A stretch of DNA of 64,000 nt from Clostridia bacterium (GTDB taxonomy: Bacteria > Bacillota > Clostridia > Christensenellales > Aristaeellaceae), in the NCBI GenBank assembly GCA_045546035.1, contig JAZQCB010000035.1, positions 6,445 to 70,444 on the forward strand, in the 5' to 3' direction. Under the pieces are notes generated by a model. The model was not told the DNA's origin, did not search any database, and saw nothing but the letters and a program-made list of their open reading frames with translations. Positions 4,001 to 28,461 of the stretch are shown here, in pieces; the stretch's first letter is position 1; each line of letters opens with the position of its first letter. The position numbers and the translations under genes are program-made.

Positions 4001-4467
4001 CCGAGGTCATGATATTTGGCCTGACCGGCGCCGCGGCTGTCCCGGCTCATTTCGGCCAGACGCTCGGGCGTAAAGTCCTCCTCCCGGAGCTCCTCCAGGG
4101 TTTGCTCCATACGCGGAACCGTTCCGGAGGAGACGCCGGGATTTTTATAAAAGAGGAGATCCGCCGCGCATTCGTTCATGGCGCGGTGCAGCGCCATGGC
4201 GCGGCCGGCGCCGTCCAGCTCGCGCAATCCGGAGGCGCCCGCCCGCTCGCGGATCAGGGTTTTCCACTTTGTCGGGCTGAGCACATCCAGATCCAGCAGG
4301 CCGGGAAGATTCAGCCCCGCCATCAGATCCCGCTCGGCCTGGAGGGTATACTGCTCCGGCACGAAGACCGTCACTCTCCGGCCGGCGGCCCGGCTTTCCG
4401 CGACCCTGCGGAGGAGCCAGGGGCGAAGGGTCCCGCTGCGCCCGCCGACGATATGAACAGAAGCCAT
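1072..4467 (-). CDS. addB: AddB/RexB-type helicase-nuclease subunit B
   Basis: VPEQYTLQAERDL and VYGFD motifs; C-terminal PD-(D/E)xK nuclease (GKIDRMD, ILDLKSS) with Fe-S cysteines (CPYK...CTYCDYRSFC); AAGGAGG RBS before ATG 4467. Confidence 0.9.
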   Translation of the reverse strand: MASVHIVGGRSGTLRPWLLRRVAESRAAGRRVTVFVPEQYTLQAERDLMAGLNLPGLLDLDVLSPTKWKTLIRERAGASGLRELDGAGRAMALHRAMNECAADLLFYKNPGVSSGTVPRMEQTLEELREEDFTPERLAEMSRDSRGAGQAKYHDLGLIWQAYENLIGGRFDDPARVWSDLCERLPSARLWDGIDLYVYGFDTVRPDLREMILSAAPLCFSVSVALTMAPAASPSGRIFQVQRDSAENLTRLLEEKGIPCDLAYLQEPHPGAADPLSFLEGHLFSDASETFPAPLCGELSLFAASHPTAEALSAVSVLQTWHGEGIPWKRMAVALPGASAFGSALAAALRASRIPFFYSRKDAVSRHGVSRLLIGALACAASGFVSDTVLEMACCGFGPLSREEGSRLANYARAHGIEHGGWKRPFRRGDDAAEMEPLREKLIAPVERLHDALLGARDASAGVEAVFRFLEETGVHAQLTARQEDLLSRELYAEAVVDRQVWDLLMNLLDQLWALLGERRASLKEMHLLLSGALDRARLNALPEEEEGVLLGEIGHMLPGEIDALILSGMNDGVLSPGDDGLLSDRERKALKDRTGKTVGLDRVRRGLLLRSDYYRAMTLPEKRLRVSFCLRDENGAGLLPGEPVAELRRLFPLLSQEGGLSFSEGATSPRTRSQALEGLGGRLRQLMAGETEDLDRPWRGALRALWPDTPAVREMVRRAERQPSPGRIPPETALRLFHGNRISISRLECYASCPYKHFLTYGLRPRLPEAFDFSALDAGDFFHLALQRFIDRASREADWPRLSEEKVNRLMDGILTHLAEEWADSPLTAGAAGLWKGEDLLRRARHAADVLTRFAANSDFRVVGTEMEFGSPEGLPPMILTLSDGSRVALRGKIDRMDAWRGPDGEYLRILDLKSSPRALDPAKMIRGEQLQLMIYLKAALGNNPAARPAGAFYFPVTDEEVDALSPEDAESERLKSVRLRGVVLREEGILRATDRDKSPFSLDSVFLKDGKTPRANAGWALEEKTLSGLMDAAGRVAADLCEKIRSGEIQASPSWESDRFSACTYCDYRSFCAPQKEDFRPLDKGISFADAAASPEGAPEKQPPAAPEVPGKSPVARQGKLRYNASSENL

Positions 4468-4627
4468 GAAAGAATGCGCCTCCTTCTTCCGGAAATGGAA
4501 CGGCGGCGGGGGACGGAAAAAGACCCTCCGCCGGAAAACACGGATTTGTGGGGGATAATGCCGGGTCGGCCCCGATCTTTGATTTCGGATACACTTTCCC
4601 CGTTTTCGGGGAAGCCTCGCGACTGCT

Positions 4628-4656
4628 ATTTTACCATGGGAGGAAAAGGGAAGCAA
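4628..4656 (-). promoter_or_regulatory. sigma-70-type promoter for addB
   Basis: Minus strand TTGCTT-17bp-TAAAAT with TG extension. Confidence 0.55.
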
Positions 4657-4737
4657 GACGGAGAAAAAGCGAAGCGAACCGGTACATCCACCCGGAAGGA
4701 AACGGTTACGCCTTTCCCGGATGAAAAACAGTTACGA

Positions 4738-4766
4738 TTGTCTTTTGGGACGGATACGGGTATAAT
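4738..4766 (+). promoter_or_regulatory. sigma-70-type promoter for the DUF3048 gene
   Basis: TTGTCT-17bp-TATAAT. Confidence 0.65.
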
Positions 4767-4818
4767 GGGATACAAACCTCCGGGGAGACGGAGCGGAGAA
4801 AAAGGGGTGGAACGAAAC

Positions 4819-7185
4819 ATGAAAAGATGGATCAGTCTGCTGCTTTGCCTGGTCATGGCGCTGAGCGCCGCGGCGGGCCTGGCGGAGGAGGGCGTCTCCA
4901 AAGCCGAAAGCGAGGCGGAACGCTGGGTATCGGACTTTCTGGCCGCCCAGAAGGCAAAGCAGAAGGATCCCTGGGTGCTGGCGATCCTGGAAGGCGGCGC
5001 CCGGGAGATCGAGATGACGGAGGAGAGCGTTCGCTTCCGGCTGCGCAGCTTTAATCCGAATCTGGCCGCCATCGGCTCCTACGCCAAGGCGCCGGACAAG
5101 GACGCCTGGCGGAAGGCGGCGATGGAGAACGTTACGGCCTACGGGCTGGAGGTTACCGTGGCGCGCCAGGCGGACGGCGCCGCTTCCGCCAAGAGCGCGG
5201 CCGCGTTCCTGAATACGGTGAAAAGGGAAGCGGGAGCCGCCAAAGGCGCTTTCGGGAAGAAGGAGTTTACCGAGGGGCTGGCCTCCCTGCTGTTCTGCCA
5301 GCCCACGGCGGACAAAAAGCCCACCGCCGCTTCCCTGATGACGGCCAGGGATGAGTTCGCGGCCTTTATCGGCGCGCGGGAGGACATGTTCCCCTGCGAG
5401 AGCCCCGCGGAATGGGCGCCCCTCTTCTATGCCCAGCGGAACGTCCAGTTTACGGTGAAAAACGGTCCGCATAACCTGACGCTCAGATGGGACGGGGTGG
5501 CGCCGGAAAACCTGCTGAACGCCGCCTATGACGCAGCCTCGGCGGAGCTGAGCAGCGTTCCCGCGGCCCAGCGGGCCAAGGAGGACAGCCTTTCCTATCT
5601 GTGGCGCAGCTCCCTGGCCGCGGCGGCGGTCAACGCCAAGAAGGGCCGGCTTCAGACCCAGACCGCGGTTTTCGATATCGACGAGCTGGCGGCCGGCAAG
5701 GTGCCGCAGGGATACAGCGCCTATTTCGGACGGTATAACGCGGGGGAAACCTTCGCGAATCTGGTGGAGGGATACCGGCAGATGCCGGCGGAAGCCTCCC
5801 AGCCGCTGCCGAAAACCGGCGTCATCAGCCAGGTTCAGAAAAAAGGCGTGAGCGTGATCGTCAAGGTGCCCAAGGACGGCCGCAACACCTATGTTCAGCT
5901 GCGGGACGCGGATACCGGCGTAATCCAGGCGGAGGCCTTCATCGCTCCCGGGAAGAACGTGACCATGAAGGTGGCGGAGAGCTTCTATACCGCCCAGTTC
6001 GCGACGGGCTCCACCTGGTATGGGACGGAGGGCGTCTTCGGCCCCCTGGGCAATTATACCTGCACGAATGAGTTTTCCGTTTCCAACCGGAACAAGTGGA
6101 AGCTGACCCCGGAAACCGAACAGCCCGGCATCGAGCTTCACTCCATTACCGCGGCGGACTTCGCGCCCACCGAGGACAAATCCGTTCATCTGATCGGCGT
6201 GCTGGAGGCGGAGGTGCCCCTGGGAGACTATCCGGAAAACAACCCGGTGATCTCCGGGGAAAGCTCCCTGACGGGGCTGGCCGCCTCCGGCGAGGCCTAT
6301 ACGCCGGTGGTCATGGTGCTTGACAACGCGGAGGACGCCTATCCCCACTGGGGCGTTTCCCAGGCTGACCTGATCCTGCAGATTCCCAACGCCGGCGCCG
6401 GCGCCACGAAGCTGCTGGCCGTCTTCGGCAACCAGTATCCGGAGCAGGCGGGCCCCGTCCGCTCCGGCCGGTCCTCCATGCTGCCTGTCGCCCTGAGCTT
6501 TGACGCGGCCTTCGCCTTTGCCGGCCCACCGGCGGTTCACGGCGGACAGGTGGACGTGGAACAGATGCTGGTGGAATTCGGGATGACCCGGTCCCACCGG
6601 GTGTATAACCTGCTGAGCAACAGCGACTATAAGGAGCGGATCAAGAACATCGGCTCCCACAACCTGTCCTGCCATGTGGCGAAGATTCACGGGCATCTGG
6701 CGGACATTGGGGAGGAATTCGAGGAACGGCCCTTCCTGTTTACCGACGAAAAGAGGACGGAGGGCAGGAACGCCAACATCATCCGGGTGCTCCACAGGGG
6801 CGAGAATCCCAAGGGCAACTCCAATTCCGCCAGCCGCGCGGTTTTCCGCTATGTGCCGGAGGAAAACGCCTATACCCGGACCAACTCCAGCGGCGTATAT
6901 GTCGACCGCGAAACCGGCGAAACCGTAACCTTCGCCAACGTCCTGGTGCTGCGGGTGCCGATGGCCTACGAAAAGAACTACATCTACCTGCACAGGCACA
7001 TGGTGGGCTCCGGCAGCCTGGAGATTTTCCAGAGCGGGAAATACGCCCGGGGCGCCTGGGTCCGGGACGAAATCGGCTCCCGGCTGGTGCTTGTGGATGA
7101 AAACGGCGAGGAGCTGAAGCTTCAGCGGGGCAAGACCTTTATCGTCGTGACCAACGAAGTGACCGAAGTCATCTTTACGGAATGA
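4819..7185 (+). CDS. secreted protein with C-terminal DUF3048 (YerB-like) domain
   Basis: Signal peptide MKRWISLLLCLVMALSAAAGLA; C-terminal LTGL...MVLDNAEDAYPHWGVSQADL...GPVRSGR resembles DUF3048. The ORF-track start at 3370 is an overlap artefact. Confidence 0.75.
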   Translation: MKRWISLLLCLVMALSAAAGLAEEGVSKAESEAERWVSDFLAAQKAKQKDPWVLAILEGGAREIEMTEESVRFRLRSFNPNLAAIGSYAKAPDKDAWRKAAMENVTAYGLEVTVARQADGAASAKSAAAFLNTVKREAGAAKGAFGKKEFTEGLASLLFCQPTADKKPTAASLMTARDEFAAFIGAREDMFPCESPAEWAPLFYAQRNVQFTVKNGPHNLTLRWDGVAPENLLNAAYDAASAELSSVPAAQRAKEDSLSYLWRSSLAAAAVNAKKGRLQTQTAVFDIDELAAGKVPQGYSAYFGRYNAGETFANLVEGYRQMPAEASQPLPKTGVISQVQKKGVSVIVKVPKDGRNTYVQLRDADTGVIQAEAFIAPGKNVTMKVAESFYTAQFATGSTWYGTEGVFGPLGNYTCTNEFSVSNRNKWKLTPETEQPGIELHSITAADFAPTEDKSVHLIGVLEAEVPLGDYPENNPVISGESSLTGLAASGEAYTPVVMVLDNAEDAYPHWGVSQADLILQIPNAGAGATKLLAVFGNQYPEQAGPVRSGRSSMLPVALSFDAAFAFAGPPAVHGGQVDVEQMLVEFGMTRSHRVYNLLSNSDYKERIKNIGSHNLSCHVAKIHGHLADIGEEFEERPFLFTDEKRTEGRNANIIRVLHRGENPKGNSNSASRAVFRYVPEENAYTRTNSSGVYVDRETGETVTFANVLVLRVPMAYEKNYIYLHRHMVGSGSLEIFQSGKYARGAWVRDEIGSRLVLVDENGEELKLQRGKTFIVVTNEVTEVIFTE

Positions 7186-9424: not shown

Positions 9425-9982
9425 ATGATTACAGCTGGCGATTTCAAAAAGGGCATTACCGTGGAATGGGACGGCGGCGTCTGGACCATCGTGGACTTTC
9501 AGCATGTGAAGCCCGGCAAGGGCGCGGCCTTCGTGCGGACGAAGATCAAGAACGTCATGACCGGCGCGGTGGTGGAGCGCAGCTTCAACCCCACCGACAA
9601 GATGCCCCGGGCCATCATCGAAACCAAGGAAATGCAGTATGTGTACAACGACGGCGATCTGTACTACTTCATGGACGTGGAGACATATGAGCAGCTGCCC
9701 ATGACCCATGACCAGGTGGAGGACGCGATTCCCTTCGTCAAGGAAGGCACCAATGTGACCATGCGGTTCTTCAAGGGCAAGCCCTTCTCCGTGGAAGCGC
9801 CGAACTTTGTCGTGCTGGAAGTCACGGATACCGAGCCCGGCTTCGCCGGCGATACCGCCTCTAACACCTATAAGCCCGCCACCCTGGAAACCGGCTTCAG
9901 CCTGCAGGTTCCGCTGTTCATCAATACCGGCGACAAGATCCAGATCGACACCCGGACCGGCGAATACCTGAAGCGGGCCTGA
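9425..9982 (+). CDS. efp: elongation factor P
   Basis: [15 protein letters not shown] loop (lysine type) and [21 protein letters not shown]-terminus. Confidence 0.98.
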
Positions 9983-9993
9983 TCGGAGGAAAA

Positions 9994-10422
9994 ATGAGCA
10001 AGCTGACGGATAAAATCAGTTACCTGCGGGGTCTGGCGGAAGGCATGAAGCTGAATCCCGACAAGGATTCTCACCGGCTGATTCTGGGGATCCTGGAGGT
10101 GCTGGGCGAGGTGGGCGACAGCTATGAAGCGCTGGCCGAGTCCCATGGCGAGCTGAGCAACTATGTCGAAAGCATCGACCAGGATCTGGCGGATCTGGAG
10201 GCCGACCTTTTCGACAACGCGGATGAAACGCTGGAGGGCGAGGACGGAAAAGCGGATCCGGAAGGAGACGGGGAAACGGACGGCCCGGGGGACCTGCTCT
10301 ACGAATGCCCTCATTGCCATACGGAAATCCACCTGGATCCGGAATCGCTGGATCTGGATCAGGAGCATCCCTGCCCCGCCTGCGGGAAGGAGCTGTTCCC
10401 GGAGCTGCCGGAAGAGGTATAA
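9994..10422 (+). CDS. CD1247 N-terminal-domain protein with C-terminal zinc ribbon
   Basis: KISYLRGLAEGM N-terminus, acidic linker, CPHC...CPAC; typical efp-downstream gene in Clostridia. Confidence 0.8.
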   Translation: MSKLTDKISYLRGLAEGMKLNPDKDSHRLILGILEVLGEVGDSYEALAESHGELSNYVESIDQDLADLEADLFDNADETLEGEDGKADPEGDGETDGPGDLLYECPHCHTEIHLDPESLDLDQEHPCPACGKELFPELPEEV

Positions 10423-10442
10423 CCTTCGGCAAAAATCATTTT

Positions 10443-10472
10443 CAGGCGCCCAGGCCCGGGCGCCTGTTTTTT
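10443..10472 (+). terminator. intrinsic terminator after efp and the CD1247-like gene
   Basis: caggcgccc-aggccc-gggcgcctg followed by TTTTTT. Confidence 0.75.
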
Positions 10473-10499
10473 CAACAAAGGAATTGGGAGCGAAAGCGC

Positions 10500-11216
10500 A
10501 TGAGGCACATTATGATCTTCGGGGGAACGGGGGGCATCGGGGCGGCCATGGTCCGCAGGTTCGCGGCCGCGGGGGATCGGGTCTCCCTGACATGGAACGC
10601 GGCGGAAGAAAAGGCGGCCTCCCTGGAAAAGGAGACCGGCGCCCGGGCGTATCACGCGGATATCACCCGGCCGGAGCAGGTCCGGGCCGCCGCGGCAGCC
10701 GCGGAGAGCGCCTTCGGCCCCCCGGAGGTCGTGATCTGCGCCGCGGGGGTGGGGCTGAACCGAATGCTGGCGGACACGACGGACGAGGAGTACCGCCGGG
10801 TGATGGATACCAACGTATACGGCCCCTTCTGCGTGATGAGAGAGGTGATGCCCGGCATGTTCTGGCGGAGGAAGGGAGTTATTCTAACAGTTTCCTCCAT
10901 CTGGGGCCAGACGGGCGCCTCCTGCGAGGGGGTTTATTCCGCGGCCAAGGCGGCCGTGATCGGACTGACCCGGGCGGCGGCGAAGGAAGTGGCGGAGAGC
11001 GGCGTGAGGGTCAACTGCATCGCGCCTGGCCTGATCGATACGCCGATGAACGATCACCTTTCGGCGGAGGAAAAGCGGGCGCTGACCGAGGAAATCCCCC
11101 TGGGCCGGGCCGGACTGCCGGCGGAGGTGGCGGAAACCGCCTTCTTTCTGGCGGGGGAGGGCGCGGCCTATATGACCGGACAGGTGATCCCGGTCAACGG
11201 GGGATGGTATATTTAG
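10500..11216 (+). CDS. ymfI: SDR reductase, YmfI-like (EF-P 5-aminopentanone reductase family)
   Basis: GGTGGIG Rossmann motif; VSSIWGQTGASCEGVYSAAK and VNGGW closely match B. subtilis YmfI (VSSIWGETGASCEVLYS..K) as recalled. Confidence 0.7.
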   Translation: MRHIMIFGGTGGIGAAMVRRFAAAGDRVSLTWNAAEEKAASLEKETGARAYHADITRPEQVRAAAAAAESAFGPPEVVICAAGVGLNRMLADTTDEEYRRVMDTNVYGPFCVMREVMPGMFWRRKGVILTVSSIWGQTGASCEGVYSAAKAAVIGLTRAAAKEVAESGVRVNCIAPGLIDTPMNDHLSAEEKRALTEEIPLGRAGLPAEVAETAFFLAGEGAAYMTGQVIPVNGGWYI

Positions 11217-11299: not shown

Positions 11300-11370
11300 T
11301 GGGGAATGGTGTAACGGCAGCACCTACGACTCTGACTCGTATTGTCTAGGTTCGAATCCTAGTTCCCCAG
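11300..11370 (+). tRNA. tRNA-Gln (anticodon CTG)
   Basis: Acceptor TGGGGAA/TTCCCCA, anticodon arm TACGA-CTCTGAC-TCGTA, T-arm GGTTCGAATCC; CCA not encoded. Confidence 0.95.
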
Positions 11371-11384
11371 CTTTTCTTTTTTCT

Positions 11385-11457
11385 GGCTCCGTTGTCTAGA
11401 GGCCTAGGACGCCGCCCTCTCAAGGCGGAAACACGGGTTCGAATCCCGTCGGAGCTG
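11385..11457 (+). tRNA. tRNA-Glu (anticodon CTC)
   Basis: Acceptor GGCTCCG/CGGAGCT, anticodon arm CCGCC-CTCTCAA-GGCGG, T-arm GGGTTCGAATCCC; CCA not encoded. Confidence 0.95.
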
Positions 11458-11463
11458 CGCTGG

Positions 11464-11489
11464 ACGGTCCCGCGTGGGCCGTTTTTTTT
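11464..11489 (+). terminator. intrinsic terminator after the tRNAs
   Basis: acggtcc-cgcgt-gggccgt followed by a T run. Confidence 0.75.
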
Positions 11490-11656
11490 GTGCCCTGGCG
11501 GGGACTTCGTATGGGGCCGTGGCCGATGGCTGGGGCGGGGGAATGGATCGCGGCTATTTTACGCGTCTGGCCGCACCGGCCCGGGAGGGGGGAGGATTTG
11601 CCTCGCCTCCGCGGCCGCGACCCTGAAATGTTCACGGGATATTCATCTGGGAACCC

Positions 11657-11685
11657 TTGACGAACAGGACCGCAGGCCTTATGAT
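11657..11685 (+). promoter_or_regulatory. sigma-70 promoter for the PPIase-PPTase genes
   Basis: TTGACG-17bp-TATGAT. Confidence 0.65.
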
Positions 11686-11733
11686 AGCAGCGGTTGTACC
11701 GATGGAATCACGGAAGAAATGAGGATGCTTGCG

Positions 11734-13302
11734 ATGAAGAAGATTACAGGAAGCTTGATGGCGCTGGCCCTGGCGGCCGTGCTGGCTTTCGCCCCCGCTG
11801 TCGTTTCCGCGCGTGCGGAAGGCGAGACCGCTCCGGAAGCGACGGCGACCGCCGAAACCGCCACGGTGATCCCTGATGGGGAGGCAGCCGCCGAAGCGAC
11901 GGCGACCCCTGCGCCCACGGCCGCGCCCGTGCTGCTGGCGACGGTGAACGGCGTTGAAATCTACGACAATGATCCGATCATTCAGGACCTGATCGCCTAT
12001 TACGGCGACTACGGCTACGACGTAACCGATCCCGCCCTCCTGGTTCAGATCAAGGAAGTCGGCCTGAACTGGGCCATCGATGGAGTGCTGTATCGCCAGA
12101 AGGCCCAGGAGCTGAACGTGCCCGAGATGACGGAGGAGCAGAAGAAGAACCTGGAGGCGGAGGCCAAGACGGACTGGGACGGCGCCGTGGAATACTATGC
12201 CACCAGCCTGGCCGGGCTGACCGAAACCTCCACCGAGGAGGAAAAGGCCAACGCCCGGGTGCAGGCCCTGGCCTATATCGAGAGCAATTTCGGCGTGACC
12301 GAGGAGAAATACATCAGCGATTACGTGGAAAGCTCCCGGGACACCACCCTGCGGGAAAACGTGCAGAACGCCGTTCTCGGGGAAATCACCGTTTCCGAGG
12401 AGGATATCACCGCGCATTTCAACGAGATCGTGGACGAGGATCGGGACATGTATGAGGGCAATGTGGCCATGTACGAGTATTATACGCAGTATATGGGACA
12501 GCCCAGCTTCTATATCCCCGAAGGGTATCGGGGCATCACGCATATCCTGCTGAAGGTGGATGACGAGATCCTGAACCGGTATCAGGATCTGTCGGCGAAG
12601 CTGGCCTCCCAGGAGGCGGCCGCCGCCGCCACCGCTGCTCCCGAAACCGATCCCGCGCCGGCCGCGACGGAAGCCGCCGATGCCGCGCCCACGCCGGAGA
12701 CGACCGAGGAGCCGGTCACGGCGGAAATGGTCGAGGAGGCCCGGAAGGCTGTTCTGGACAACGTGCAGTCCAAGGTGGACGAGATCATGGCCAAATATAA
12801 GGCGGGAACTCCCTTCGCGGATCTGATCGCCGAATACGGCGCCGACCCGGGCATGACGGTTGAACCCAACAAAACCGACGGTTACGCGGTACACGCGGAA
12901 AGCATCCTGTGGGATCCGGCCTTTGTGGAGGGCGCCATGACCCTGCAGAAGGTGGGGGACGTCAGCGAGCCGGTCGTCGGCAACACTGGGGTGCATATTC
13001 TGCACTATACCCGGGATATTCCCGCCGGCGCTGTGGAAATGACGCCGGAGATTCATGACCAGCTGAAGGAAGAGATCATGACGGAGGCCAGGGAGGCCGC
13101 CGTAACCGCCATGACGGAAGAATGGCGCAAAACCGCCGAGATCGTCTATACGGAAGAAGGACAGGCCATCGTGAAGGAAGTGGCCGACATGCGCGCGGAG
13201 GAGGAAACCGCCACCGGGGAACAGCCTGAAGCGGAACCCGCGGCGGAAACAGCGGATTCCCCTGCCGCTGAGGAAGAAAACGCGCCCGCCCAGGGCAACT
13301 GA
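11734..13302 (+). CDS. secreted PrsA/SurA-like parvulin peptidyl-prolyl isomerase
   Basis: Signal peptide MKKITGSLMALALAAVLAFA; LATVNG, ITHILL, FADLIAEYG.DPG, GVHILHY parvulin motifs; Ala/Thr/Glu-rich linkers. Confidence 0.8.
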   Translation: MKKITGSLMALALAAVLAFAPAVVSARAEGETAPEATATAETATVIPDGEAAAEATATPAPTAAPVLLATVNGVEIYDNDPIIQDLIAYYGDYGYDVTDPALLVQIKEVGLNWAIDGVLYRQKAQELNVPEMTEEQKKNLEAEAKTDWDGAVEYYATSLAGLTETSTEEEKANARVQALAYIESNFGVTEEKYISDYVESSRDTTLRENVQNAVLGEITVSEEDITAHFNEIVDEDRDMYEGNVAMYEYYTQYMGQPSFYIPEGYRGITHILLKVDDEILNRYQDLSAKLASQEAAAAATAAPETDPAPAATEAADAAPTPETTEEPVTAEMVEEARKAVLDNVQSKVDEIMAKYKAGTPFADLIAEYGADPGMTVEPNKTDGYAVHAESILWDPAFVEGAMTLQKVGDVSEPVVGNTGVHILHYTRDIPAGAVEMTPEIHDQLKEEIMTEAREAAVTAMTEEWRKTAEIVYTEEGQAIVKEVADMRAEEETATGEQPEAEPAAETADSPAAEEENAPAQGN

Positions 13303-13304
13303 GC

Positions 13305-13952
13305 ATGGAGAGATGTGATCTTTATTTCGCGGACGTCCGGGAGCTAAATGCTCCCGGGCGTTTCGCGCTGTGGGAAAGCCGGATGCCGGCCTATCGGCGG
13401 GAGAAGATCCGCTCCTTCCGCTTTGAGGAGGGGCGCAGGCTCTCCCTGGGCGTCGGGGCCCTGCTGTTTCTGGCGCTGGCGGAGCGGGGGATCGATTACG
13501 CCTCCGCCGCTTATGGGGAGGGGGAATACGGCAAGCCGTATCTGCCGGAGCATCCCGGGATTCATTACAGTCTGAGCCATGCGGGCGTCTGGGCCCTGTG
13601 CGCGGTCAGCGCCCTTCCCGTGGGATGCGACGCGGAGGCCGTCGGACGGGGCAGCCCGGCCATCTCGAACCGCTTTTTCCATCCATCGGAGCGGGACGCC
13701 CTGTCCCGGGAAACGGATCCGGCGGCCTGGCAGCGGCTGTTCTGCCGGATCTGGACGCGGAAGGAAAGCTATCTGAAGGCCACGGGCGTCGGCCTGGCCG
13801 GCGGCATGGAGGGCTTCAGCACCCTGGCCGCGACGGAGAACGTTTATTACGCGGAGAGGACGGCGGACAGGGAAACGATGCTGTGCTGCTGCCAGATGGG
13901 ACAGGAGGTCCCGGAGGTCCGCTGGCGGGAAATCCACCTGGGAACCGTATGA
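13305..13952 (+). CDS. Sfp-type 4'-phosphopantetheinyl transferase
   Basis: YGKPY, YSLSHAG, VGCDAE, WTRKESYLKATG motifs; starts 2 nt after the PPIase stop. Confidence 0.9.
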   Translation: MERCDLYFADVRELNAPGRFALWESRMPAYRREKIRSFRFEEGRRLSLGVGALLFLALAERGIDYASAAYGEGEYGKPYLPEHPGIHYSLSHAGVWALCAVSALPVGCDAEAVGRGSPAISNRFFHPSERDALSRETDPAAWQRLFCRIWTRKESYLKATGVGLAGGMEGFSTLAATENVYYAERTADRETMLCCCQMGQEVPEVRWREIHLGTV

Positions 13953-14036
13953 GACAAAAAAACCTCCGGCGGTTGAATGGCCGGAGAGGCAAGCGTCTGA
14001 GAGGCAGAAAAGGATTCTTTCGGCGAGAATACCTGC

Positions 14037-17000
14037 TCACGCGTAATCCCGCCGGGGCAGATGAATGCCGAAATCCCGGGCAGTGGCTTCCAGAAGATCC
14101 AGGGCCCGCTCGATCTGCTCGGGCTTGTGCTCGCTGATGACGCAGAAGCGGAGCCGGGCCTTGCCTTTGGGAACGGCGGGATACATCGCGGGGGGGACGC
14201 TGACGCCCCGCTTTTTCAGCTCGTTGGACAGGAGCCAGGCATCCTCGTCCCGGCCCACCAGCACCGGGAGCACAGCGGTTTCCCCGGCCAGGCAGATGTC
14301 CAGATGCCGCCGGCGGGCGCCTTCGGCGAACGCACGGATGGCGCCGTGAAGCTGCTCCATGATTTCCGGCCGGGTACGCAGCAGGCGGATGGCCTCCAGC
14401 GAAGCGGCGGCCAGCCCGGGACTGATGCCAACCGAGAAGACGAAGCCCGGCAGGTTGTAGCGCAGATACTCGATAAGGGACCGGCTGCCGGCCAGATAGC
14501 CGCCGCAGGTTCCCAGCCCCTTGGAGAGGGTTCCGTATTTGATGTCGATGTCGTCCCCGGCCAGGCCGAAATACTCGTCCACGCCGCCGCCGGTGGGCCC
14601 CAGGACGCAGGCGCTGTGGGCCTCGTCCACCATGAGGAAGCAGCCGTAATCCTTTTTTACCCGGACGAATTCAGGAACGGGAGCGATATCCCCATCCATG
14701 CTGTAGACCCCCTCGATGACGATGAGCACCTTGGCGTAATAGGAACGCTGGGCCCGGAGAATCTGCTCCAGGGCGGCGTAATCGTTATGGGGGAAGGGAC
14801 GGGCCACGGCCTCGGAGAGCCTGCACCCCTGCTCCACGGAGTTATGGGCCAGGGCATCGTAGAGGATCAGATCCCCCTGGCCGCAGAAATTGCCGATAAA
14901 GGTTACGTTGGTGGAATGGCCGCCGACGCAGACCAGAGCGTCCTCGGTATGCTTCCATTCCGCGATGGCCTTTTCCAGATCCTCATGCACCTGCTTTTCG
15001 CCGGCCAGCAGGCGGCTGCCGCTGGCGCTGGTACCATATTTGTCGATGGCGGCCTTGGCGGCTTCCCGGATCTCCTTCCGGCCGCTCATGCCCGCGTAGT
15101 TGTAGCTGCCGAATTCCAGAATTTCCTTTCCGTCGACGATACCCGTATCCAGCAGGGGACTTTCGTGGCGGACGAAATAGGGGTTGTCCCCGCCCCGGGC
15201 CAGATCCTCCTGGCGGCGGCGGAAAGCCTGGTATTCCGGCGTGTCCTCGAAACGGATGAGGGGGATGACCGGCACCCGCTCTTTCGGCGAATCGGCGGCG
15301 CGGCCTTCCATCAGCTGCTGAATATAGCGGGTCATGCCGTTGACCGTCGCGCAGCGGCCGTATTCCTCGGCGGAAAGGGTGACACCCCAGGTCTCCTCGG
15401 CCTTGAGCACCATACCCAGCACCTGGAGGCTGTCGCCTCCCAGGTCGTCGATGAAATGGGCGCCGTCGGGAATCTCGATCGCCGGCTTGCCAAGCGCCTC
15501 TGCGAAGAGCGCGCGGACGCCTTCGCGGATATCGTCCCGGCGGAGGAATTCCTCCTTTTCCTGCCCGGCGACGCTGACCTCGTCGCCTACCGTCCGGGTC
15601 GTCAGATCCAGTTCCCGGCAGGTCAGCCGTTTCGAGGCGCAGAGATGCTTCAGCTCCAGGCGCTTGACCTTGATACCGTTCGACAGGGGAAGCGCCTCCG
15701 GCGTGACCAGCACCCGGCGCACCCGGCTCGCCGCCGGCAGACGATCGTTCCTTTCAGAAACCTTTCCCGCCAGGGAGGAGAGCCACGCCGGGTCGCCGTA
15801 GCGGCTGCCGACGCTGAGAATCAGGGTTACATGTTCATTGCTGTTGACCCCGTGGATCGGGTGCAGCTTGCTGCGTCCGGTCTGGGGCAGGCCGAGGACG
15901 CAGAGCTGATCCACCCCCGGCAGGCCGGCGAAGGGCTCCTCCAGGTCATCCGGATAAATGTTTTCGCCGGATTCGTTGACGATGACGTCCTTCAGGCGGC
16001 CGCGGATATACAGACGGCCCCTGTGATCCATGGTGACCAGATCGCCCGTGGAAAACCAGCCCTCCGCGTCCGTGCCCGGGGGCAGCATCTGCCCGCCGGA
16101 GAGACGCCCGGTATGGATGCCATCGCCCCGGATCTGCAGCTCCTTTTCCGGGGTCATCCGGTATTCGGCGGTTTCCAGGGCCCGGCCCACGCTGCCGCTG
16201 AGACGGACGCCCAGGCGAAGGCTGGTTTCCAGCCCGGTCACAGCGGTTTCGGTCATGCCGTAACCGGTAATGGTGCTGTAGCCCAGGGCGTTAAGCACCT
16301 TCAGGGTATTGCGGGGCGTATGGCCCCCGCCCAGAATGATACACTGCACATCCGTCCCCAGGAGACGCTCGTTTACGCCGGCAAAGAGCCTTTTTTCCGC
16401 GAAGCGAAGCCCTGCCTCCGGGGCGAGCTTCTGCAGCGCCAGGGACAGGGATTTCATGAGACGGAAGGCTGCCCGCTTTCCGAGGGACTCCCGGCTCAGG
16501 CTTTTTTCCAGCTCGCTGACCAGTCTGTTGCCTACCAGAGGAACGACCACCAGCAGCTGGGGCCGGAGGCGCTGACAGGTTTTCAGCAGGGAGGCGGGGG
16601 AACGGTCCGGGAGATAGAGCATCGTCATGCCGAGAAACTCGCCCCAGATCACGTTGGTCATAAAGCCCAGCACATGATGAAAGGGCAGGAAGGCCAGGAA
16701 ACGCCGGTTCTCATTGGCGATCACCCGGGTGTTTTCGCCCATGATCAGGGCGCTGTTCAGCGCCTGGCCGCAGAGGGCCGCGCCGCTGTAGACGAAGACC
16801 CGGGCCCTTCCGGTGGTTCCGCTGGTACACATGGCCACCTGATCGCCCCAGACCGGAACATAGTTTTCGGCCCGCGGGGCGGAAAGCACGGTTTTCGGCT
16901 CAATCTGGCGAAAGGAAGGGGGAAGCTTCCGGGGCCGCCGGGTGATGATCATGCGGCAGCCGGCCTCTTCCATCAGGCTCTGGATCAGGCTGTCGGCGGC

Positions 17001-17309
17001 GGAGGCGTCCAGCAGGAGGACGCTGTGGCCGCTGCGCAGCAGGGCCCAGAACAGCACCGGCCAATCCGGACAGGTTTCCAGCGCCAGGGCCACCCATCCG
17101 CCTTCCCCGGGGGCCAGGGAACAGAGAAGCGAGGCGCAGTCGTCCGAGCGGGAGGCCAGCTCGGCGTAGGTCATGTTCTTTTCGTCGTCCCCCTCCAGCC
17201 AGCGGGCGGCGGCGATGTCGCCGTATTCCCGAAGAATGGAGAAGAGGGTTTCCAGCTTCCGGCTGGCCCGCAGACGCTCCGTTGCGGCGGAAACATCATA
17301 TGCACTCAT
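14037..17309 (-). CDS. trifunctional acyl-AMP ligase + acyl carrier protein + alpha-oxoamine synthase (serine palmitoyltransferase-like)
   Basis: ANL motifs TSGTTG, GYGMTET, TGDL, GRLKDVIV..SGENIYP; ACP LGGDSL (Ser codon about 15429-15431); PLP domain GSYNYAG, AHNS, DEAHS, GTLSKG; GGAGG RBS before ATG 17309. Confidence 0.85.
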   Translation of the reverse strand: MSAYDVSAATERLRASRKLETLFSILREYGDIAAARWLEGDDEKNMTYAELASRSDDCASLLCSLAPGEGGWVALALETCPDWPVLFWALLRSGHSVLLLDASAADSLIQSLMEEAGCRMIITRRPRKLPPSFRQIEPKTVLSAPRAENYVPVWGDQVAMCTSGTTGRARVFVYSGAALCGQALNSALIMGENTRVIANENRRFLAFLPFHHVLGFMTNVIWGEFLGMTMLYLPDRSPASLLKTCQRLRPQLLVVVPLVGNRLVSELEKSLSRESLGKRAAFRLMKSLSLALQKLAPEAGLRFAEKRLFAGVNERLLGTDVQCIILGGGHTPRNTLKVLNALGYSTITGYGMTETAVTGLETSLRLGVRLSGSVGRALETAEYRMTPEKELQIRGDGIHTGRLSGGQMLPPGTDAEGWFSTGDLVTMDHRGRLYIRGRLKDVIVNESGENIYPDDLEEPFAGLPGVDQLCVLGLPQTGRSKLHPIHGVNSNEHVTLILSVGSRYGDPAWLSSLAGKVSERNDRLPAASRVRRVLVTPEALPLSNGIKVKRLELKHLCASKRLTCRELDLTTRTVGDEVSVAGQEKEEFLRRDDIREGVRALFAEALGKPAIEIPDGAHFIDDLGGDSLQVLGMVLKAEETWGVTLSAEEYGRCATVNGMTRYIQQLMEGRAADSPKERVPVIPLIRFEDTPEYQAFRRRQEDLARGGDNPYFVRHESPLLDTGIVDGKEILEFGSYNYAGMSGRKEIREAAKAAIDKYGTSASGSRLLAGEKQVHEDLEKAIAEWKHTEDALVCVGGHSTNVTFIGNFCGQGDLILYDALAHNSVEQGCRLSEAVARPFPHNDYAALEQILRAQRSYYAKVLIVIEGVYSMDGDIAPVPEFVRVKKDYGCFLMVDEAHSACVLGPTGGGVDEYFGLAGDDIDIKYGTLSKGLGTCGGYLAGSRSLIEYLRYNLPGFVFSVGISPGLAAASLEAIRLLRTRPEIMEQLHGAIRAFAEGARRRHLDICLAGETAVLPVLVGRDEDAWLLSNELKKRGVSVPPAMYPAVPKGKARLRFCVISEHKPEQIERALDLLEATARDFGIHLPRRDYA

Positions 17310-17382
17310 TCGTGGTGATCCTCCGAAATCCTTATTCGGCCGCGGCACAGAGCGGATCTGCGCCGTAAAAACGAAACAACTG

Positions 17383-17411
17383 ATTATACCACTGCCTGAA
17401 TCCGCATACAA
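17383..17411 (-). promoter_or_regulatory. sigma-70 promoter for the ligase-ACP-SPT gene
   Basis: Minus strand TTGTAT-17bp-TATAAT with TG extension. Confidence 0.65.
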
Positions 17412-26752: not shown

Positions 26753-26802
26753 AAAGAACAACGGAAAACCCGTGAAATGCTCTTGAAGTGGAGGCGTATA
26801 TC

Positions 26803-28461
26803 ATGAGAAAAACAGCGTTTTGGCTGAGCCTGCTGCTCGCACTGTGCGTGATAGCCGGCTGCGCGGCGGCGGAGGGCGTCGCCGTGAAGAAGCTGATCCC
26901 GGCGGATAAAAGCGTGACGGCCTATGTGGGGCGGACAACGGAACCGCTGAAGATCAAGATTGCTCCGGCCAACGCCTCGGATCAGACGCTGACCTGGGCT
27001 TCTGAAAACGCGCAGATCGCGGAGGTGAACGACGAGGGCGCGGTGACCGGCGTCGCCGTCGGAAAAACGGTGGTGACCGCTACGGCGGAGGGCGGAAAAA
27101 GCTGCAAAATCACGGTGACCGTCCTGCAGGGGGCGGAGGCGATCACCCTCGATCCGTCGGAACTCTCCGTCGCGAAAGGGAAAAAAGTGAAGGTTACGGC
27201 GAAGGTGTCCCCGGCCGGCGCAGCAAAGACGAAGATCCGCTGGACTTCCTCCGACCCGAAGGTGGCCGTCGTCCGGGACGGAACCGTGACCGGCAAAAAG
27301 GGCGGCTCCGCGGTGATTACCGCCGAAACGGAGGACGGCGGCGCCTCTGCGGAGATCGGGGTCACGGTGGTGGAGCCGGTGACCTCCGTCAAGGTCAAAA
27401 AAAGCAAGCTCACCCTGACGGAAGGGGATGAGACGGTCATCGAGGCGGTGGTGCTGCCTTCTTCGGCGGGCAATCAAAAACTGACGTGGGCCTCTTCGAA
27501 CCAGAAGGTGGCGACGGTTTCCGACGACGGAACCGTTTCCGCGGTGAGCCCCGGGAAAGCGACGATTACGGCGGCCTCCACCGACGGCACGAAGAAATCG
27601 GCGAAGGTTCAGGTCACCGTCGGTACCATTAACGTGGCCACCATCCGGAAAATTGATTTTTACCGCGGGAATTACAATCCCACGATCAAAAACAACTGCG
27701 CAAAGACGATCACCGGCGTCCAGATGTGGTTTACCTCCTATAAACGGGACGGCGAGGTCATCTACACCGGTCTGTATGACTTTGACGACATGAAGCTGAA
27801 GCCAGGGAAATCCACGGACGACTTTTACGCTCCCGTCCAGAACCGCAGCAGCATTGCCTACATCGAGGCGCGGGTCAGCATGGTGACCTTTGCGGACGGA
27901 AGCACAAAAACCATTCCCTTCGACAGAGCCAAGGTCACGACCTACGGCACGAAGCCGAAGACCCTTGCGAACGCGGGCACGTCCACCGGCGCGGGCGCAG
28001 CCGTGAACACCGCTGAAGCGGCGGAGCAAACGGCGGAAGAGCGTGCGGCGGCGGACGCTGCTGAAGAGGCAGGGCAGACGGCGGAGGAGCGTGCCGCGGC
28101 GGAAGCGAAAGCTGCAAAGGAAGCGAAAGCCGCGGACGAAAAAGCGGCTGCCGGGCAAACGGAGGAAGAGCAGGTGGCGGCGCAGATGGCGGCGGATGCC
28201 GGCCTTGCGGGCGCCGGCAGCGCCGGGAATTCGTTTGAGGGAACCTGGAAGGGCAGCGGCGCGACGCTGGAGCTGGCGCAGGACGGAAGCGGGAAGCTGA
28301 CTGTCGCCGGCAGCACCTATCTGCTGACCTGGACGGCGAACGGTTCCACACTGTCCCTGAAGCAGCCGAACAACGCCAACGCTTCTGTCATCAAGGGAAC
28401 CCTCAGCGGCGATACCCTGACCCTGACGATCGCTCAGGCGCAGCTGAAGCTGAAGCGGTAA
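26803..28461 (+). CDS. secreted protein with three Big_2 Ig-like repeats, Ala/Glu-rich linker and small C-terminal beta domain
   Basis: Signal peptide; three LTWASxN/xVAxVxDGxVT repeats; AEQTAEERAAA repeat linker. Confidence 0.8.
   Translation: MRKTAFWLSLLLALCVIAGCAAAEGVAVKKLIPADKSVTAYVGRTTEPLKIKIAPANASDQTLTWASENAQIAEVNDEGAVTGVAVGKTVVTATAEGGKSCKITVTVLQGAEAITLDPSELSVAKGKKVKVTAKVSPAGAAKTKIRWTSSDPKVAVVRDGTVTGKKGGSAVITAETEDGGASAEIGVTVVEPVTSVKVKKSKLTLTEGDETVIEAVVLPSSAGNQKLTWASSNQKVATVSDDGTVSAVSPGKATITAASTDGTKKSAKVQVTVGTINVATIRKIDFYRGNYNPTIKNNCAKTITGVQMWFTSYKRDGEVIYTGLYDFDDMKLKPGKSTDDFYAPVQNRSSIAYIEARVSMVTFADGSTKTIPFDRAKVTTYGTKPKTLANAGTSTGAGAAVNTAEAAEQTAEERAAADAAEEAGQTAEERAAAEAKAAKEAKAADEKAAAGQTEEEQVAAQMAADAGLAGAGSAGNSFEGTWKGSGATLELAQDGSGKLTVAGSTYLLTWTANGSTLSLKQPNNANASVIKGTLSGDTLTLTIAQAQLKLKR

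What the first reader, a model, noticed from the sequence alone, without database searches (positions are those of the whole stretch)
13305..17309. Single-chain acyl-ACP synthetase + ACP + SPT-like enzyme with an adjacent PPTase: candidate sphingoid/amino-ketone lipid pathway in a Firmicute
Seen: one ORF of about 1090 aa carries a fatty-acyl adenylation domain (TSGTTG, GYGMTET, TGDL), an ACP with intact GGDSL serine, and a PLP alpha-oxoamine synthase (GSYNYAG, DEAHS, GTLSKG). It has its own promoter and converges on an Sfp-type PPTase. Established: in sphingolipid-making proteobacteria (Caulobacter/Sphingomonas type) SPT uses a dedicated ACP loaded by a dedicated acyl-ACP synthetase, encoded as separate genes; the GxYNY motif is typical of SPTs, whereas BioF has SNDY. 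Inference: this is that three-gene module fused into one assembly line that condenses a fatty acid with serine or another small amino acid. Sphingoid lipids are not a textbook feature of Clostridia-like bacteria.
Basis: partly seen in the sequence, partly recalled or inferred. Interest (0 to 1): 0.85.

Follow-up and report, generated by a model that had tools for sequence, protein, structure and literature searches.

The report
Self-loading sphingoid-type aminoketone synthase gene
A rumen Clostridia chromosome encodes a single 1,090-residue enzyme that should activate a carboxylic (probably fatty) acid, hold it on its own carrier domain and join it to a small amino acid, which is the first step of sphingolipid-base-like synthesis and has not been shown in this bacterial group.

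Summary
Window 14037-17309 (-) is an intact 1,090-aa adenylation / carrier / alpha-oxoamine-synthase (AOS) protein, tail-to-tail with an Sfp-type PPTase (13305-13952, +). All catalytic motifs are about 100% conserved in 174 homologues from gut and rumen Clostridia.

The interpretation needs three corrections.
1. The PLP domain is not a fused proteobacterial SPT. It forms a 100%-bootstrap clade with carrier-protein-fused AOS domains at the ends of type I PKS and A-ACP-AOS proteins. Stand-alone SPT, ThAOS, Kbl and BioF lie outside at 30-36% identity.
2. The PPTase adjacency is confined to this strain lineage (0 of 66 related loci).
3. The conserved partner is an SDR whose best curated match is 3-ketodihydrosphingosine reductase KdsR. 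It is adjacent in 23 of 29 loci outside the window's clade and 0 of 37 inside it. An orthologue sits elsewhere in two window-clade genomes.

The acid substrate cannot be assigned: the fold neighbours are MenE, MatB, FadD13 and aryl-acid ligases. No biotin genes are linked.

The most likely function is a self-loading synthase of a long-chain 2-amino-3-ketone (sphingoid-base precursor). No paper describing this in Clostridia turned up in the ten searches of the held library. I rate it a new variant of a known kind, interest about 0.6.

The parts
14037..17309 (-). Gene for the 1,090-aa tri-domain protein (adenylation, carrier, alpha-oxoamine synthase); stop codon at 14037-14039
   Evidence: ORF and translation; Pfam domains; more than 500 homologues of the same length; AlphaFold model with mean pLDDT 81.5
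15576..17309 (-). Adenylation (ANL) domain, residues 1-578. Motifs: A3 TSGTTG 162-167, A4-like PFHHV 209-213, A5 GYGMTET 349-355, A7 TGDL 421-424, A8 hinge GRLKD 437-441, A10 lysine K547
   Evidence: Pfam PF00501; motifs about 100% conserved in 174 sequences; model pLDDT 89.8, with fold neighbours MenE, MatB, FadD13, CahJ and EntE at 17-22% identity
15306..15542 (-). Carrier (ACP/PCP) domain, residues 590-668. The phosphopantetheine-accepting Ser627 in LGGDSL is encoded at nt 15429-15431
   Evidence: Pfam PF00550; D626, S627 and L628 are 98-100% conserved
14040..15245 (-). PLP-dependent alpha-oxoamine synthase domain, residues 689-1090. Key residues: His822, Asp895, His898, Schiff-base Lys930 (nt 14520-14522), Arg1054
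   Evidence: Pfam PF00155; alignments to SPT and ThAOS structures; residues 99-100% conserved; phylogeny; Foldseek top hits are SPT, ThAOS and KBL
13305..13952 (+). Sfp-type 4'-phosphopantetheinyl transferase (215 aa), convergent with the tri-domain gene. It is the likely activator of Ser627
   Evidence: Pfam ACPS; the best curated matches are the NCBIfam HetI and AusB models, both below cut-off; best PDB hit is Sfp at 72 bits with catalytic motifs kept; the same arrangement occurs in the 99% identical strain L153, where the apparent frameshift is a scaffold N-gap
17383..17411 (-). Promoter-like site: TTGTAT, a 17-nt spacer that ends in TG one base before the -10 hexamer (extended -10 TGgTATAAT, 17391-17383), then TATAAT
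   Evidence: Read directly from the sequence. It was not called by the consensus scan and is untested
17319..17324 (-). Ribosome-binding site GGAGGA, 9 nt before the ATG at 17309
   Evidence: Read from the sequence

Best explanation
The gene encodes a self-contained, self-loading alpha-oxoamine synthase. The proposed steps are below; all chemistry is inferred.
1. The Sfp-type PPTase encoded tail-to-tail converts Ser627 of the carrier domain to the holo form.
2. The N-terminal ANL domain adenylates a free carboxylic acid. It is not an alpha-amino acid and is most likely a long-chain fatty acid. The domain then transfers it in cis to the phosphopantetheine thiol.
3. The C-terminal PLP domain (Lys930) binds a small amino acid, serine being most likely and alanine or glycine possible. 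It carries out a decarboxylative Claisen condensation with the tethered acyl thioester.
4. This releases a 2-amino-3-ketone, a 3-ketosphinganine-like long-chain base precursor.
5. A KdsR-like short-chain reductase reduces the ketone to the amino alcohol. This reductase is adjacent in most relatives and unlinked in this clade.

Shown here: domain order, intact and conserved catalytic residues, family relationships and gene neighbourhoods. Inferred: every chemical step, the chain length, the amino acid and the fate of the product.
For: - **Architecture:** three domains in the order A-ACP-AOS.
- **Conservation:** all catalytic motifs are about 100% conserved in 174 homologues. The AOS domain is the most constrained, at mean 80% identity to the window against 53% for A and 55% for ACP.
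- **A domain:** it carries the acyl/aryl-ligase-type PFHH motif instead of the FDxS of amino-acid A domains. The A8 hinge and A10 lysine are kept.
- **AOS domain:** it lies in a 100%-bootstrap clade with AOS domains that sit directly behind carrier domains in PKS and A-ACP-AOS proteins, that is, enzymes fed by a tethered acyl group.
- **Active-site motifs:** GSYNY, GSR, EGVYSM and VDEAHS match SPT rather than Kbl, ThAOS or BioF.
- **Fold:** the top Foldseek hits of the model are SPTs.
- **Partner reductase:** outside the window clade, 23 of 29 loci (17 of 21 with both flanks) have an adjacent same-strand SDR. Its top curated match is 3-ketodihydrosphingosine reductase KdsR at 189-320 bits.
- **Independent confirmation:** a motif scan recovered dozens more SDR / A-ACP-AOS pairs.
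- **Position of the window clade:** it is nested inside these SDR-linked clades.
- **Unlinked orthologue:** two window-clade genomes (the MAGs of L014 and L036) encode an orthologous SDR on another contig, 49-57% identical over its full length to the linked ones.
- **PPTase:** an Sfp-type PPTase is adjacent.
- **Transcription:** metatranscriptome contigs cover the gene at low depth.
Against: - No curated SPT model is met (288/640, 272/500, 230/670 bits).
- Grouping with stand-alone SPTs has only 55% bootstrap.
- The acid substrate is not assignable. Sequence and fold neighbours include MenE, MatB and aryl-acid ligases as well as FadD13, all at 17-22% identity.
- No KdsR-like reductase, ceramide synthase or other lipid gene lies in the 64-kb window.
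- The window clade has no adjacent KdsR-like reductase in 0 of 37 loci.
- The unlinked reductase was seen in only two MAGs, and binning errors are possible.
- The RNA evidence comes from assembled contigs at depth 2-11 and cannot exclude DNA carry-over.
- The reviews read in the held library list bacterial sphingolipid producers without any Clostridia.
Confidence: 0.6

Rival explanations
1. Same chemistry but a non-lipid product. The A domain activates a short, branched, dicarboxylic or aromatic acid. The aminoketone, or the pyrazine or hydroxyketone derived from it, then serves as a signal or as a secondary-metabolite building block, as with CqsA/LqsA autoinducers or the AOS off-loading steps of PKS lines.
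For: - The nearest AOS relatives are PKS and NRPS-type off-loading domains.
- The A-domain fold neighbours are dominated by MenE, MatB and aryl-acid ligases.
- The carrier motif LGGDSL and the Sfp-type PPTase are typical of secondary metabolism.
- The window clade lacks a linked reductase.
Against: - The gene sits among housekeeping genes (gyrBA, mnmG, efp) with no other biosynthetic genes.
- The partner SDR's best curated match is the long-chain KdsR.
- The family is very widespread and its AOS domain highly conserved (55-100% identity to the window, mean 80%), which is unusual for strain-specific natural products.
- The CqsA-type model scores lowest of the AOS families, 162 bits against a cut-off of 428.
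Confidence: 0.25
2. It is a biotin-pathway enzyme. The A domain activates pimelate, and the AOS domain is a BioF that condenses pimeloyl-ACP with alanine to give 8-amino-7-oxononanoate.
For: - The highest NCBIfam score is the bioF model TIGR00858, 340 bits.
- JGI names homologues '8-amino-7-oxononanoate synthase/acyl carrier protein'.
- A natural BioW-BioF fusion exists (PMC9544090).
Against: - The bioF score is below the cut-off of 426 and does not discriminate. A genuine Sphingomonas SPT scores 319 on the same model.
- Identity to E. coli BioF is 29.5%, the lowest of all references, and BioF is the outgroup in every tree.
- No BioB homologue lies in the window or in any of the family loci searched.
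- The conserved neighbour is a ketoreductase, which has no role in biotin synthesis.
Confidence: 0.03
3. The FabG/YmfI-like SDR at 10500-11216 (+) is the real partner reductase in this sub-clade. It would replace the KdsR-like enzyme, so that the locus SDR ... PPTase -> <- synthase is the functional unit.
For: Orthologues of this SDR (63-68% identical) lie directly tail-to-tail with the tri-domain gene in the three closest relatives L154, L235 and L236. In the window only two tRNA genes, a PpiC-domain gene and the PPTase gene separate the two.
Against: - The SDR passes NCBIfam's equivalog cut-off for the EF-P 5-aminopentanone reductase YmfI (243 against 238 bits). It sits next to efp, whose product has the KPGKGAAF loop.
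- It scores only 108 bits on the partner-SDR profile, where true partners score 300-394.
- It is absent from the other 37 window-clade loci.
- Synteny among such close relatives is expected by descent. gyrB is conserved there too.
Confidence: 0.1

Closest known systems
Carrier-protein-fused AOS domains at the C-terminus of type I PKS and A-ACP-AOS proteins (the class that, from my own knowledge, includes RedL, RedN, PigH and SxtA; surveyed in silico in PMC3870968)
   Same: - The AOS domain lies immediately behind a carrier domain.
- Identity is 43-51%, and the joint clade has 100% bootstrap support.
- The motifs SSYNYLG, GTSxSxSR, EGVYSMDGD, VDEAHS, GFVFSVGISP and YPAV are shared.
- The A-CP-AOS architecture was already listed for Microscilla, Blastopirellula and Synechococcus.
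   Different: - The Firmicute family is its own monophyletic branch (100% bootstrap).
- Its A domain shows only generic ANL similarity (22-28% identity) to the A domains of the other tri-domain proteins.
- It is a solitary chromosomal gene with no KS or AT modules.
- Its partner is a KdsR-like reductase.
Rhodobacteria sphingolipid start module: SPT + dedicated ACP (AcpR) + acyl-ACP synthetase (AasR) (PMC9386255)
   Same: The logic is the same: ATP-dependent loading of a fatty acid on a dedicated carrier, followed by PLP-dependent condensation with an amino acid. Active-site motifs are shared with alpha-proteobacterial SPT (GxYNY, EGVYSM, VDEAHS).
   Different: - Here there is one polypeptide rather than three genes.
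- The AOS domain is only 32-34% identical to SPT, and no SPT model cut-off is met.
- SPT Arg378 is replaced by Met.
- Common descent of the A and ACP parts could not be tested.
Bacteroides-type SPT plus 3-ketodihydrosphingosine reductase KdsR (NCBIfam NF047600 and NF049977)
   Same: An AOS enzyme is paired with a classical SDR ketoreductase. The partner SDRs of the Firmicute family have KdsR as their best curated match.
   Different: - The SDR scores of 189-320 bits are below the cut-off of 400.
- Bacteroidetes-type SPT, as seen in Sphingobacterium, has GSNSY and VDDAHS and no fused loader.
- In the window clade the SDR is not linked.
Sulfonolipid start enzymes: cysteate acyl-ACP transferase (SulA) of Alistipes (PMC9304779; PDB 7u7h, 28eh)
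   Same: It is an AOS-family enzyme of a gut anaerobe that takes its acyl group from an ACP rather than from CoA.
   Different: It is a more distant relative (167-179 bits, against 209-219 for SPT and ThAOS). It has no fused loader or carrier, and its amino-acid substrate is cysteate.
ThAOS, the broad-specificity Thermus AOS (PDB 7poa; PMC11906848), and KBL
   Same: ThAOS is the highest pairwise score among solved structures (217-219 bits, 36% identity). The C-terminal loop YPAVPKGKARLR resembles that of Kbl.
   Different: Both are stand-alone and CoA-dependent. They carry SNNY, (A/S)VR and DDAHG/DDSHA motifs, and they lie outside the carrier-fused clade.

Membership tests
Alpha-oxoamine synthase (AOS) family of fold-type I PLP enzymes | PLP-binding lysine, stacking His, Asp to the pyridine N, His to O3', and carboxylate-binding Arg in the conserved motifs; AOS fold | tested here: met
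   H822, D895, H898, K930 and R1054 align with SPT H159, D231, H234, K265 and R390, and are 99-100% conserved. Foldseek TM about 0.85 to SPT, ThAOS and KBL.
Serine palmitoyltransferase (bacterial SPT) | Score above the curated equivalog cut-offs (NF047600 CFB, NF047599 beta, NF047603 alpha) | tested here: not met
   288/640, 272/500 and 230/670 bits. A true Sphingomonas SPT scores 762 on its own model.
Serine palmitoyltransferase (bacterial SPT) | Phylogenetic grouping with characterised SPTs | tested here: inconclusive
   The family groups with SpSPT and SmSPT against ThAOS, Kbl and BioF at only 55% bootstrap. The robust grouping (100%) is with carrier-fused AOS domains.
Serine palmitoyltransferase (bacterial SPT) | Uses L-serine and a C16-type acyl thioester to give 3-ketodihydrosphingosine | not testable with these tools
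   In SPT the serine hydroxyl is read through the PLP phosphate and water molecules (PMC10196870), so sequence cannot settle the substrate.
Serine palmitoyltransferase pathway | Co-occurrence with a 3-keto-long-chain-base reductase | tested here: inconclusive
   A KdsR-like SDR is adjacent in 23 of 29 loci outside the window clade and in 0 of 37 inside it. None lies in the window. Unlinked orthologues exist in two window-clade MAGs.
BioF (8-amino-7-oxononanoate synthase) | TIGR00858 cut-off met and linkage to bioA, bioD and bioB | tested here: not met
   340 bits against a cut-off of 426. 29.5% identity to E. coli BioF. No BioB homologue in the window or in any of the family loci searched.
ANL adenylate-forming enzymes | Core motifs A3, A5, A7, the A8 hinge and the A10 lysine; two-subdomain fold | tested here: met
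   Motifs present and conserved. Model pLDDT 89.8, TM 0.65-0.77 to MenE, CahJ and EntE.
Fatty acyl-AMP ligase (FAAL) | FAAL-specific insertion in the N-terminal subdomain before the hinge, which blocks CoA use | tested here: not met
   About 65 residues separate A5 (349-355) from A7 (421-424), a length I take from my own knowledge to be ordinary for ANL enzymes. E. coli FAAL 3pbk is a weak hit (E 4e-5). The extra helices at 257-315 lie elsewhere.
Amino-acid-activating NRPS A domain | A4 FDxS motif with the Asp that binds the alpha-amino group | tested here: not met
   The position reads LPFHHV, as in acyl and aryl ligases. The TIGR01733 score is only 67 bits against a cut-off of 317.
Sfp-type phosphopantetheinyl transferase | About 220-aa two-lobed enzyme with the (V/I)G(I/V)D(I/x)E and W(S/T)xKE(S/A)xxK motifs | tested here: met
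   VGCDAE and WTRKESYLK align with Sfp (72 bits, E 4e-19). Pfam ACPS hit.
Carrier-protein-fused (assembly-line) AOS domains | AOS domain directly C-terminal to a phosphopantetheine carrier domain; shared clade | tested here: met
   Domain order. The nearest non-family relatives are AOS domains at the C-terminus of KS-AT-(DH-KR)-ACP and A-ACP proteins. The joint clade has 100% bootstrap support.

The most novel reading that the evidence does not exclude
Many Gram-positive gut and rumen anaerobes make sphingoid-type long-chain bases. The groups named in the record titles are Christensenellales, Oscillospiraceae, Lachnospiraceae, Tissierellia and some Clostridium species. They would use a route separate from both the Bacteroidetes and the proteobacterial pathways. 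The route is a carrier-dependent AOS of assembly-line ancestry, self-loaded from free fatty acid by a fused adenylation domain, plus a KdsR-like reductase. That would add a large, unrecognised source of sphingolipid-like molecules to the gut ecosystem.
Probability: 0.35. Interest if true: 0.8.

Novelty: new variant of a known kind. Interest (0 to 1): 0.6.

Why it matters
- **Current view.** The reviews held here credit bacterial sphingolipids to Bacteroidetes and some Proteobacteria. These lipids are known to modulate host immunity and lipid metabolism.
- **What would change.** If this widespread, strongly conserved Clostridia enzyme and its KdsR-like partner make long-chain bases, the set of gut and rumen producers would be much larger. 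Marker-gene surveys that count only Bacteroides spt would miss them.
- **Physiological logic.** The enzyme would show how bacteria that, from my own knowledge, lack long-chain acyl-CoA pools feed an SPT-like reaction: the loader and carrier are fused to the synthase.
- **Biocatalysis.** A single protein that goes from free acid, ATP and amino acid to an alpha-aminoketone without CoA is attractive. This echoes the interest in ThAOS and BioWF.
- **Testability.** Cultured carriers of the module exist (Clostridium thermarum, Clostridium sp. 19966, and Helcococcus bovis for the AOS + SDR form), so the question can be tested directly.

Tried and rejected
1. **PPTase synteny as a family trait.** tblastn and phmmer with the window PPTase found nothing within 10 kb in 66 related loci. 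Rejected.
2. **The window SDR (10305-11216) as the missing ketoreductase.** It is a FabG/YmfI-type enzyme next to efp and scores 108 bits on the partner profile, against 300-394 for true partners. Kept only as a minor rival, because its orthologue abuts the synthase gene in three close relatives.
3. **An apparent frameshift of the PPTase in the 99% identical contig L153.** It is a scaffold gap of ten Ns.
4. **Biotin reading.** Rejected.
5. **Homology of the A and ACP parts to the proteobacterial AasR and AcpR.** Six Sphingomonadaceae spt loci (+-8 kb) contain no ANL gene, so the test failed for lack of a comparator.
6. **Genome scan with an 8-sequence SDR alignment.** With 3 sequences it returned mostly generic SDRs of other phyla. 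A hand-made motif pattern (PFQGAYxAxKHA) worked.
7. **Riboswitch or T-box upstream that might reveal the amino acid.** None found near the gene in the window or in three relatives.
8. **Other reductases next to the few non-window-clade loci without the SDR (L041, L042, L046, L057).** Nothing consistent. There is one NAD-epimerase-family gene and one DegV-family gene in L041.
9. **Literature.** Ten full-text searches found no paper on this fusion or on sphingolipid synthesis in Clostridia. Three of them (and, partly, 24) were badly framed and returned noise. The Stankeviciute 2022 paper is not held.
10. **Substrate of the A domain from sequence or fold.** Not assignable.

Full report
**What is there**

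The window has about 62% G+C, so both strands carry long ORFs over 14.0-17.5 kb. Codon-position G+C (GC3 0.79) and homology identify the minus-strand frame as the gene. With the ATG at 17309, preceded by GGAGGA, the product is 1,090 aa, matching the length and start of its homologues.

Pfam finds three domains: AMP-binding (29-393), PP-binding (597-663) and Aminotran_1_2 (729-1071).

The convergent plus-strand gene 13305-13952 encodes a 215-aa Sfp-type phosphopantetheinyl transferase. Its best solved relative is Sfp (E 4e-19), with the metal-binding and WxxKES motifs kept.

An exact extended -10 box (TGgTATAAT) lies about 75 nt upstream of the start. It is only a consensus match, and the scan tool did not call it.

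**Is it functional?**

An alignment of 174 full-length homologues shows about 100% conservation of:
- the ANL core motifs A3, A5, A7, the A8 hinge and the A10 lysine;
- the carrier serine;
- the AOS catalytic His, Asp, His, Lys and Arg.

The AOS domain is far more constrained than the others. Mean identity to the window is 80%, against 53% for the A domain and 55% for the carrier.

AlphaFold models are confident: pLDDT 81.5 for the whole protein and 89.8 for the A domain.

Assembled contigs of four bovine and sheep gut metatranscriptomes cover the gene at depth 2-11. The same runs give 60-235 for efp (5 in the shallow sheep run) and 10-164 for the start of gyrB. This fits low expression but does not exclude DNA carry-over.

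**Whose gene is it?**

- Homologues number more than 500 clusters at 90% identity. Almost all come from uncultured Clostridia and Christensenellales of ruminant and other guts.
- gyrB and gyrA beside the gene are 83-97% identical to those of such MAGs.
- Cultured carriers of more distant members include Clostridium sp. 19966 and Clostridium thermarum.
- Public names are generic: 'aminotransferase class I/II-fold PLP-dependent enzyme' or '8-amino-7-oxononanoate synthase/acyl carrier protein'.

**What kind of AOS?**

No curated family model is met. The bioF model gives the top score (340 bits, cut-off 426), but a genuine Sphingomonas SPT scores 319 on it. The ranking therefore carries no information.

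Among solved structures the order is ThAOS (about 218 bits), SPTs (about 208), KBL (about 195), SulA (about 178), ALAS and then BioF (about 150-163). Foldseek puts SPTs first.

Motif by motif, against the reference enzymes:

| Motif in the family | Shared with | Others have |
|---|---|---|
| GSYNY | alpha-proteobacterial SPT | Sphingobacterium SPT: GSNSY |
| EGVYSM | alpha-proteobacterial SPT | TDG(V/I)FSM; BioF TEGVFSM |
| VDEAHS | alpha-proteobacterial SPT | VDDAHS, DDAHG, DDSHA |
| GSR | both SPTs | Kbl and ThAOS: (S/A)VR; BioF: GSG |
| C-terminal loop YPAVPKGKARLR | Kbl-like | SPT Arg378 corresponds to Met here |

With five references, the family is monophyletic (100% bootstrap) but joins the two SPTs at only 55%.

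The decisive result came from the exhaustive profile-free search of 1.84 billion representatives.
- After about 23 family clusters, the next-best matches (43-51% identity) are AOS domains at the C-terminal end of proteins of 1,000-2,800 aa.
- Thirty of these were sampled. All have the AOS domain; 16-18 also have KS domains, 15 AT, 16 a carrier domain, 9-11 DH or KR, and 6 an AMP-binding domain.
- In a tree, the Firmicute family plus these carrier-fused domains separate from SPT, ThAOS, Kbl and BioF with 100% support.
- Their consensus carries the same YNY, DEAHS and GFVFSVGISP motifs.

So the domain is an assembly-line-type AOS, built to take a tethered acyl group. It is not a proteobacterial SPT that acquired partners.

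The A domains do not share this history. The window's A domain is only 22-28% identical to those of the other tri-domain proteins.

**The loader**

The A domain has the acyl/aryl-ligase PFHH motif rather than the FDxS of amino-acid A domains. It has no FAAL-type insertion before the hinge.

The closest sequences and folds are MenE, MatB, FadD13, CahJ, feruloyl- and coumaroyl-CoA ligases, EntE and FscC, and the Thermus long-chain ligase. All are at 17-22% identity. The substrate is a carboxylic acid. 'Fatty' is an inference, not a finding.

**Neighbourhood**

The PPTase is adjacent only in this lineage. It is present in the 99% identical contig L153, where its apparent disruption is a scaffold gap. 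It is absent within 10 kb in all 66 related genome loci.

The window's surroundings are housekeeping genes:
- pepP-like peptidase, efp and a YmfI-type SDR;
- tRNA-Gln and tRNA-Glu;
- a PpiC-domain protein;
- the PPTase and the synthase;
- TPR and SPFH proteins, then gyrB and gyrA.

The informative neighbour appears in relatives. Outside the window's own clade, 23 of 29 loci (17 of 21 with both flanks present) have a roughly 265-aa classical SDR directly beside the gene on the same strand. This holds whether the synthase is:
- tri-domain (Limiplasma, Avichristensenella, Clostridium, and MAGs labelled Lachnospiraceae and Clostridiales);
- ACP-AOS (Oscillospiraceae);
- or AOS alone (Helcococcus, Tissierellia).

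The top curated match of these SDRs is 3-ketodihydrosphingosine reductase KdsR, at 189-320 bits against a cut-off of 400. A motif scan of all species genomes recovered dozens more such pairs.

The window clade is nested within these SDR-linked clades, yet it has the SDR beside the gene in 0 of 37 loci. The reductase is not lost, however. Two window-clade MAGs (those of L014 and L036) encode a full-length orthologue on another contig. It is 49-57% identical to the linked ones and scores 300-317 bits on their profile, where generic SDRs score 80-130.

Whether the window's own genome has one cannot be told from 64 kb. None lies in the window.

**Rivals**

- *Biotin synthesis* is excluded as far as sequence can go.
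- *A non-lipid aminoketone* (signal or natural-product precursor) remains possible. The acid is unassigned and the AOS ancestry is from PKS lines. Against it stand the housekeeping context, the wide distribution, the strong conservation and the KdsR-like partner.
- *The YmfI-like SDR of the window.* Its orthologue lies tail-to-tail with the synthase gene in the three closest relatives. It is more simply explained as the EF-P aminopentanone reductase, retained by synteny.

**Literature**

The held library documents:
- the separate SPT, AcpR and AasR genes of Rhodobacteria, with the statement that bacterial sphingolipids occur in Bacteroidetes and Proteobacteria (PMC9386255);
- an in-silico list of A-CP-AOS proteins in other phyla (PMC3870968);
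- the BioW-BioF fusion (PMC9544090).

Nothing on this Clostridia family was found in ten searches. The library lacks most subscription journals, so absence is not proof.

**Verdict**

Three points change:
1. The evolutionary story: the domain is an assembly-line AOS, not a fused proteobacterial module.
2. The supposed PPTase linkage: it is specific to this lineage.
3. The 'fatty acid / serine' specifics: they are not established.

The new and stronger argument for a sphingoid-type product is the conserved KdsR-like reductase partner. I rate the mechanism 'self-loading synthase of a long-chain 2-amino-3-ketone' at about 0.6. The generic chemistry alone would rate about 0.85. It is a new variant of a known kind, with interest 0.6.

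Noticed in passing
window 11300-11371 and 11385-11458 (+): tRNA-Gln(CTG) and tRNA-Glu(CTC) lie between the YmfI-like SDR and the PpiC-domain gene. The mechanical 636-aa ORF 11392-13302 overlaps the second tRNA, so the gene must start later, at about 11737 as called in L153. Metatranscriptome contigs end at 11458.
   Followed up: partly
window 9425-9982 (efp) and 10500-11216 (SDR), + strand: EF-P has a KPGKGAAF loop. Next to it lies an SDR that just passes NCBIfam's cut-off for the EF-P 5-aminopentanone reductase YmfI (243 against 238 bits). This hints that the Bacillus-type 5-aminopentanol modification of EF-P may exist in this Clostridia lineage.
   Followed up: partly
window 47383-52599 (-): A 1,738-aa ORF in a 68-71% G+C stretch with good coding signature but no Pfam hit. 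Its C-terminal part has a DLGADTADISLF motif reminiscent of actin/HSP70-like ATPases.
   Followed up: no
window 14061-17318 (+): A 1,085-aa shadow ORF lies opposite the synthase gene. It is a high-GC artefact that naive ORF callers could pick up.
   Followed up: yes
L154 11412-12167, L235 8377-9132, L236 11693-12448: In the three closest relatives the order is synthase -> <- YmfI-like SDR -> a 251-aa Exo_endo_phos family protein (86-90% identical among them). That superfamily includes sphingomyelinases as well as nucleases. No homologue lies in the window.
   Followed up: partly
L041 8700-9782 and 14426-15325: In one Christensenellales MAG that lacks the KdsR-like SDR, an NAD-epimerase/3beta-HSD-family gene lies directly upstream of the synthase gene and a DegV-family gene downstream. 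From my own knowledge, DegV proteins are the FakB-type fatty-acid-binding family.
   Followed up: no
L054 7525-11241 and L056 9142-12875: Two MAGs show the order SDR, then a separate shortened A-domain ORF, then an ACP-AOS ORF. The total is about 135 residues shorter than the fusion. This is either a genuine split variant or a shared assembly frameshift.
   Followed up: no
L153 (reverse complement) about 3975-4065: The public contig of the 99% identical strain carries about 80 foreign bases plus a run of ten Ns inside the PPTase gene. This made the gene caller emit a 306-aa product with no Pfam hit. It is a scaffolding artefact.
   Followed up: yes
window 3370-7185 (+) and 26788-28461 (+): Large predicted surface proteins: one of 1,271 aa with a C-terminal DUF3048 domain, and one of 557 aa with three Big_2 repeats. 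Big_2 proteins also recur next to the synthase gene in window-clade relatives.
   Followed up: no
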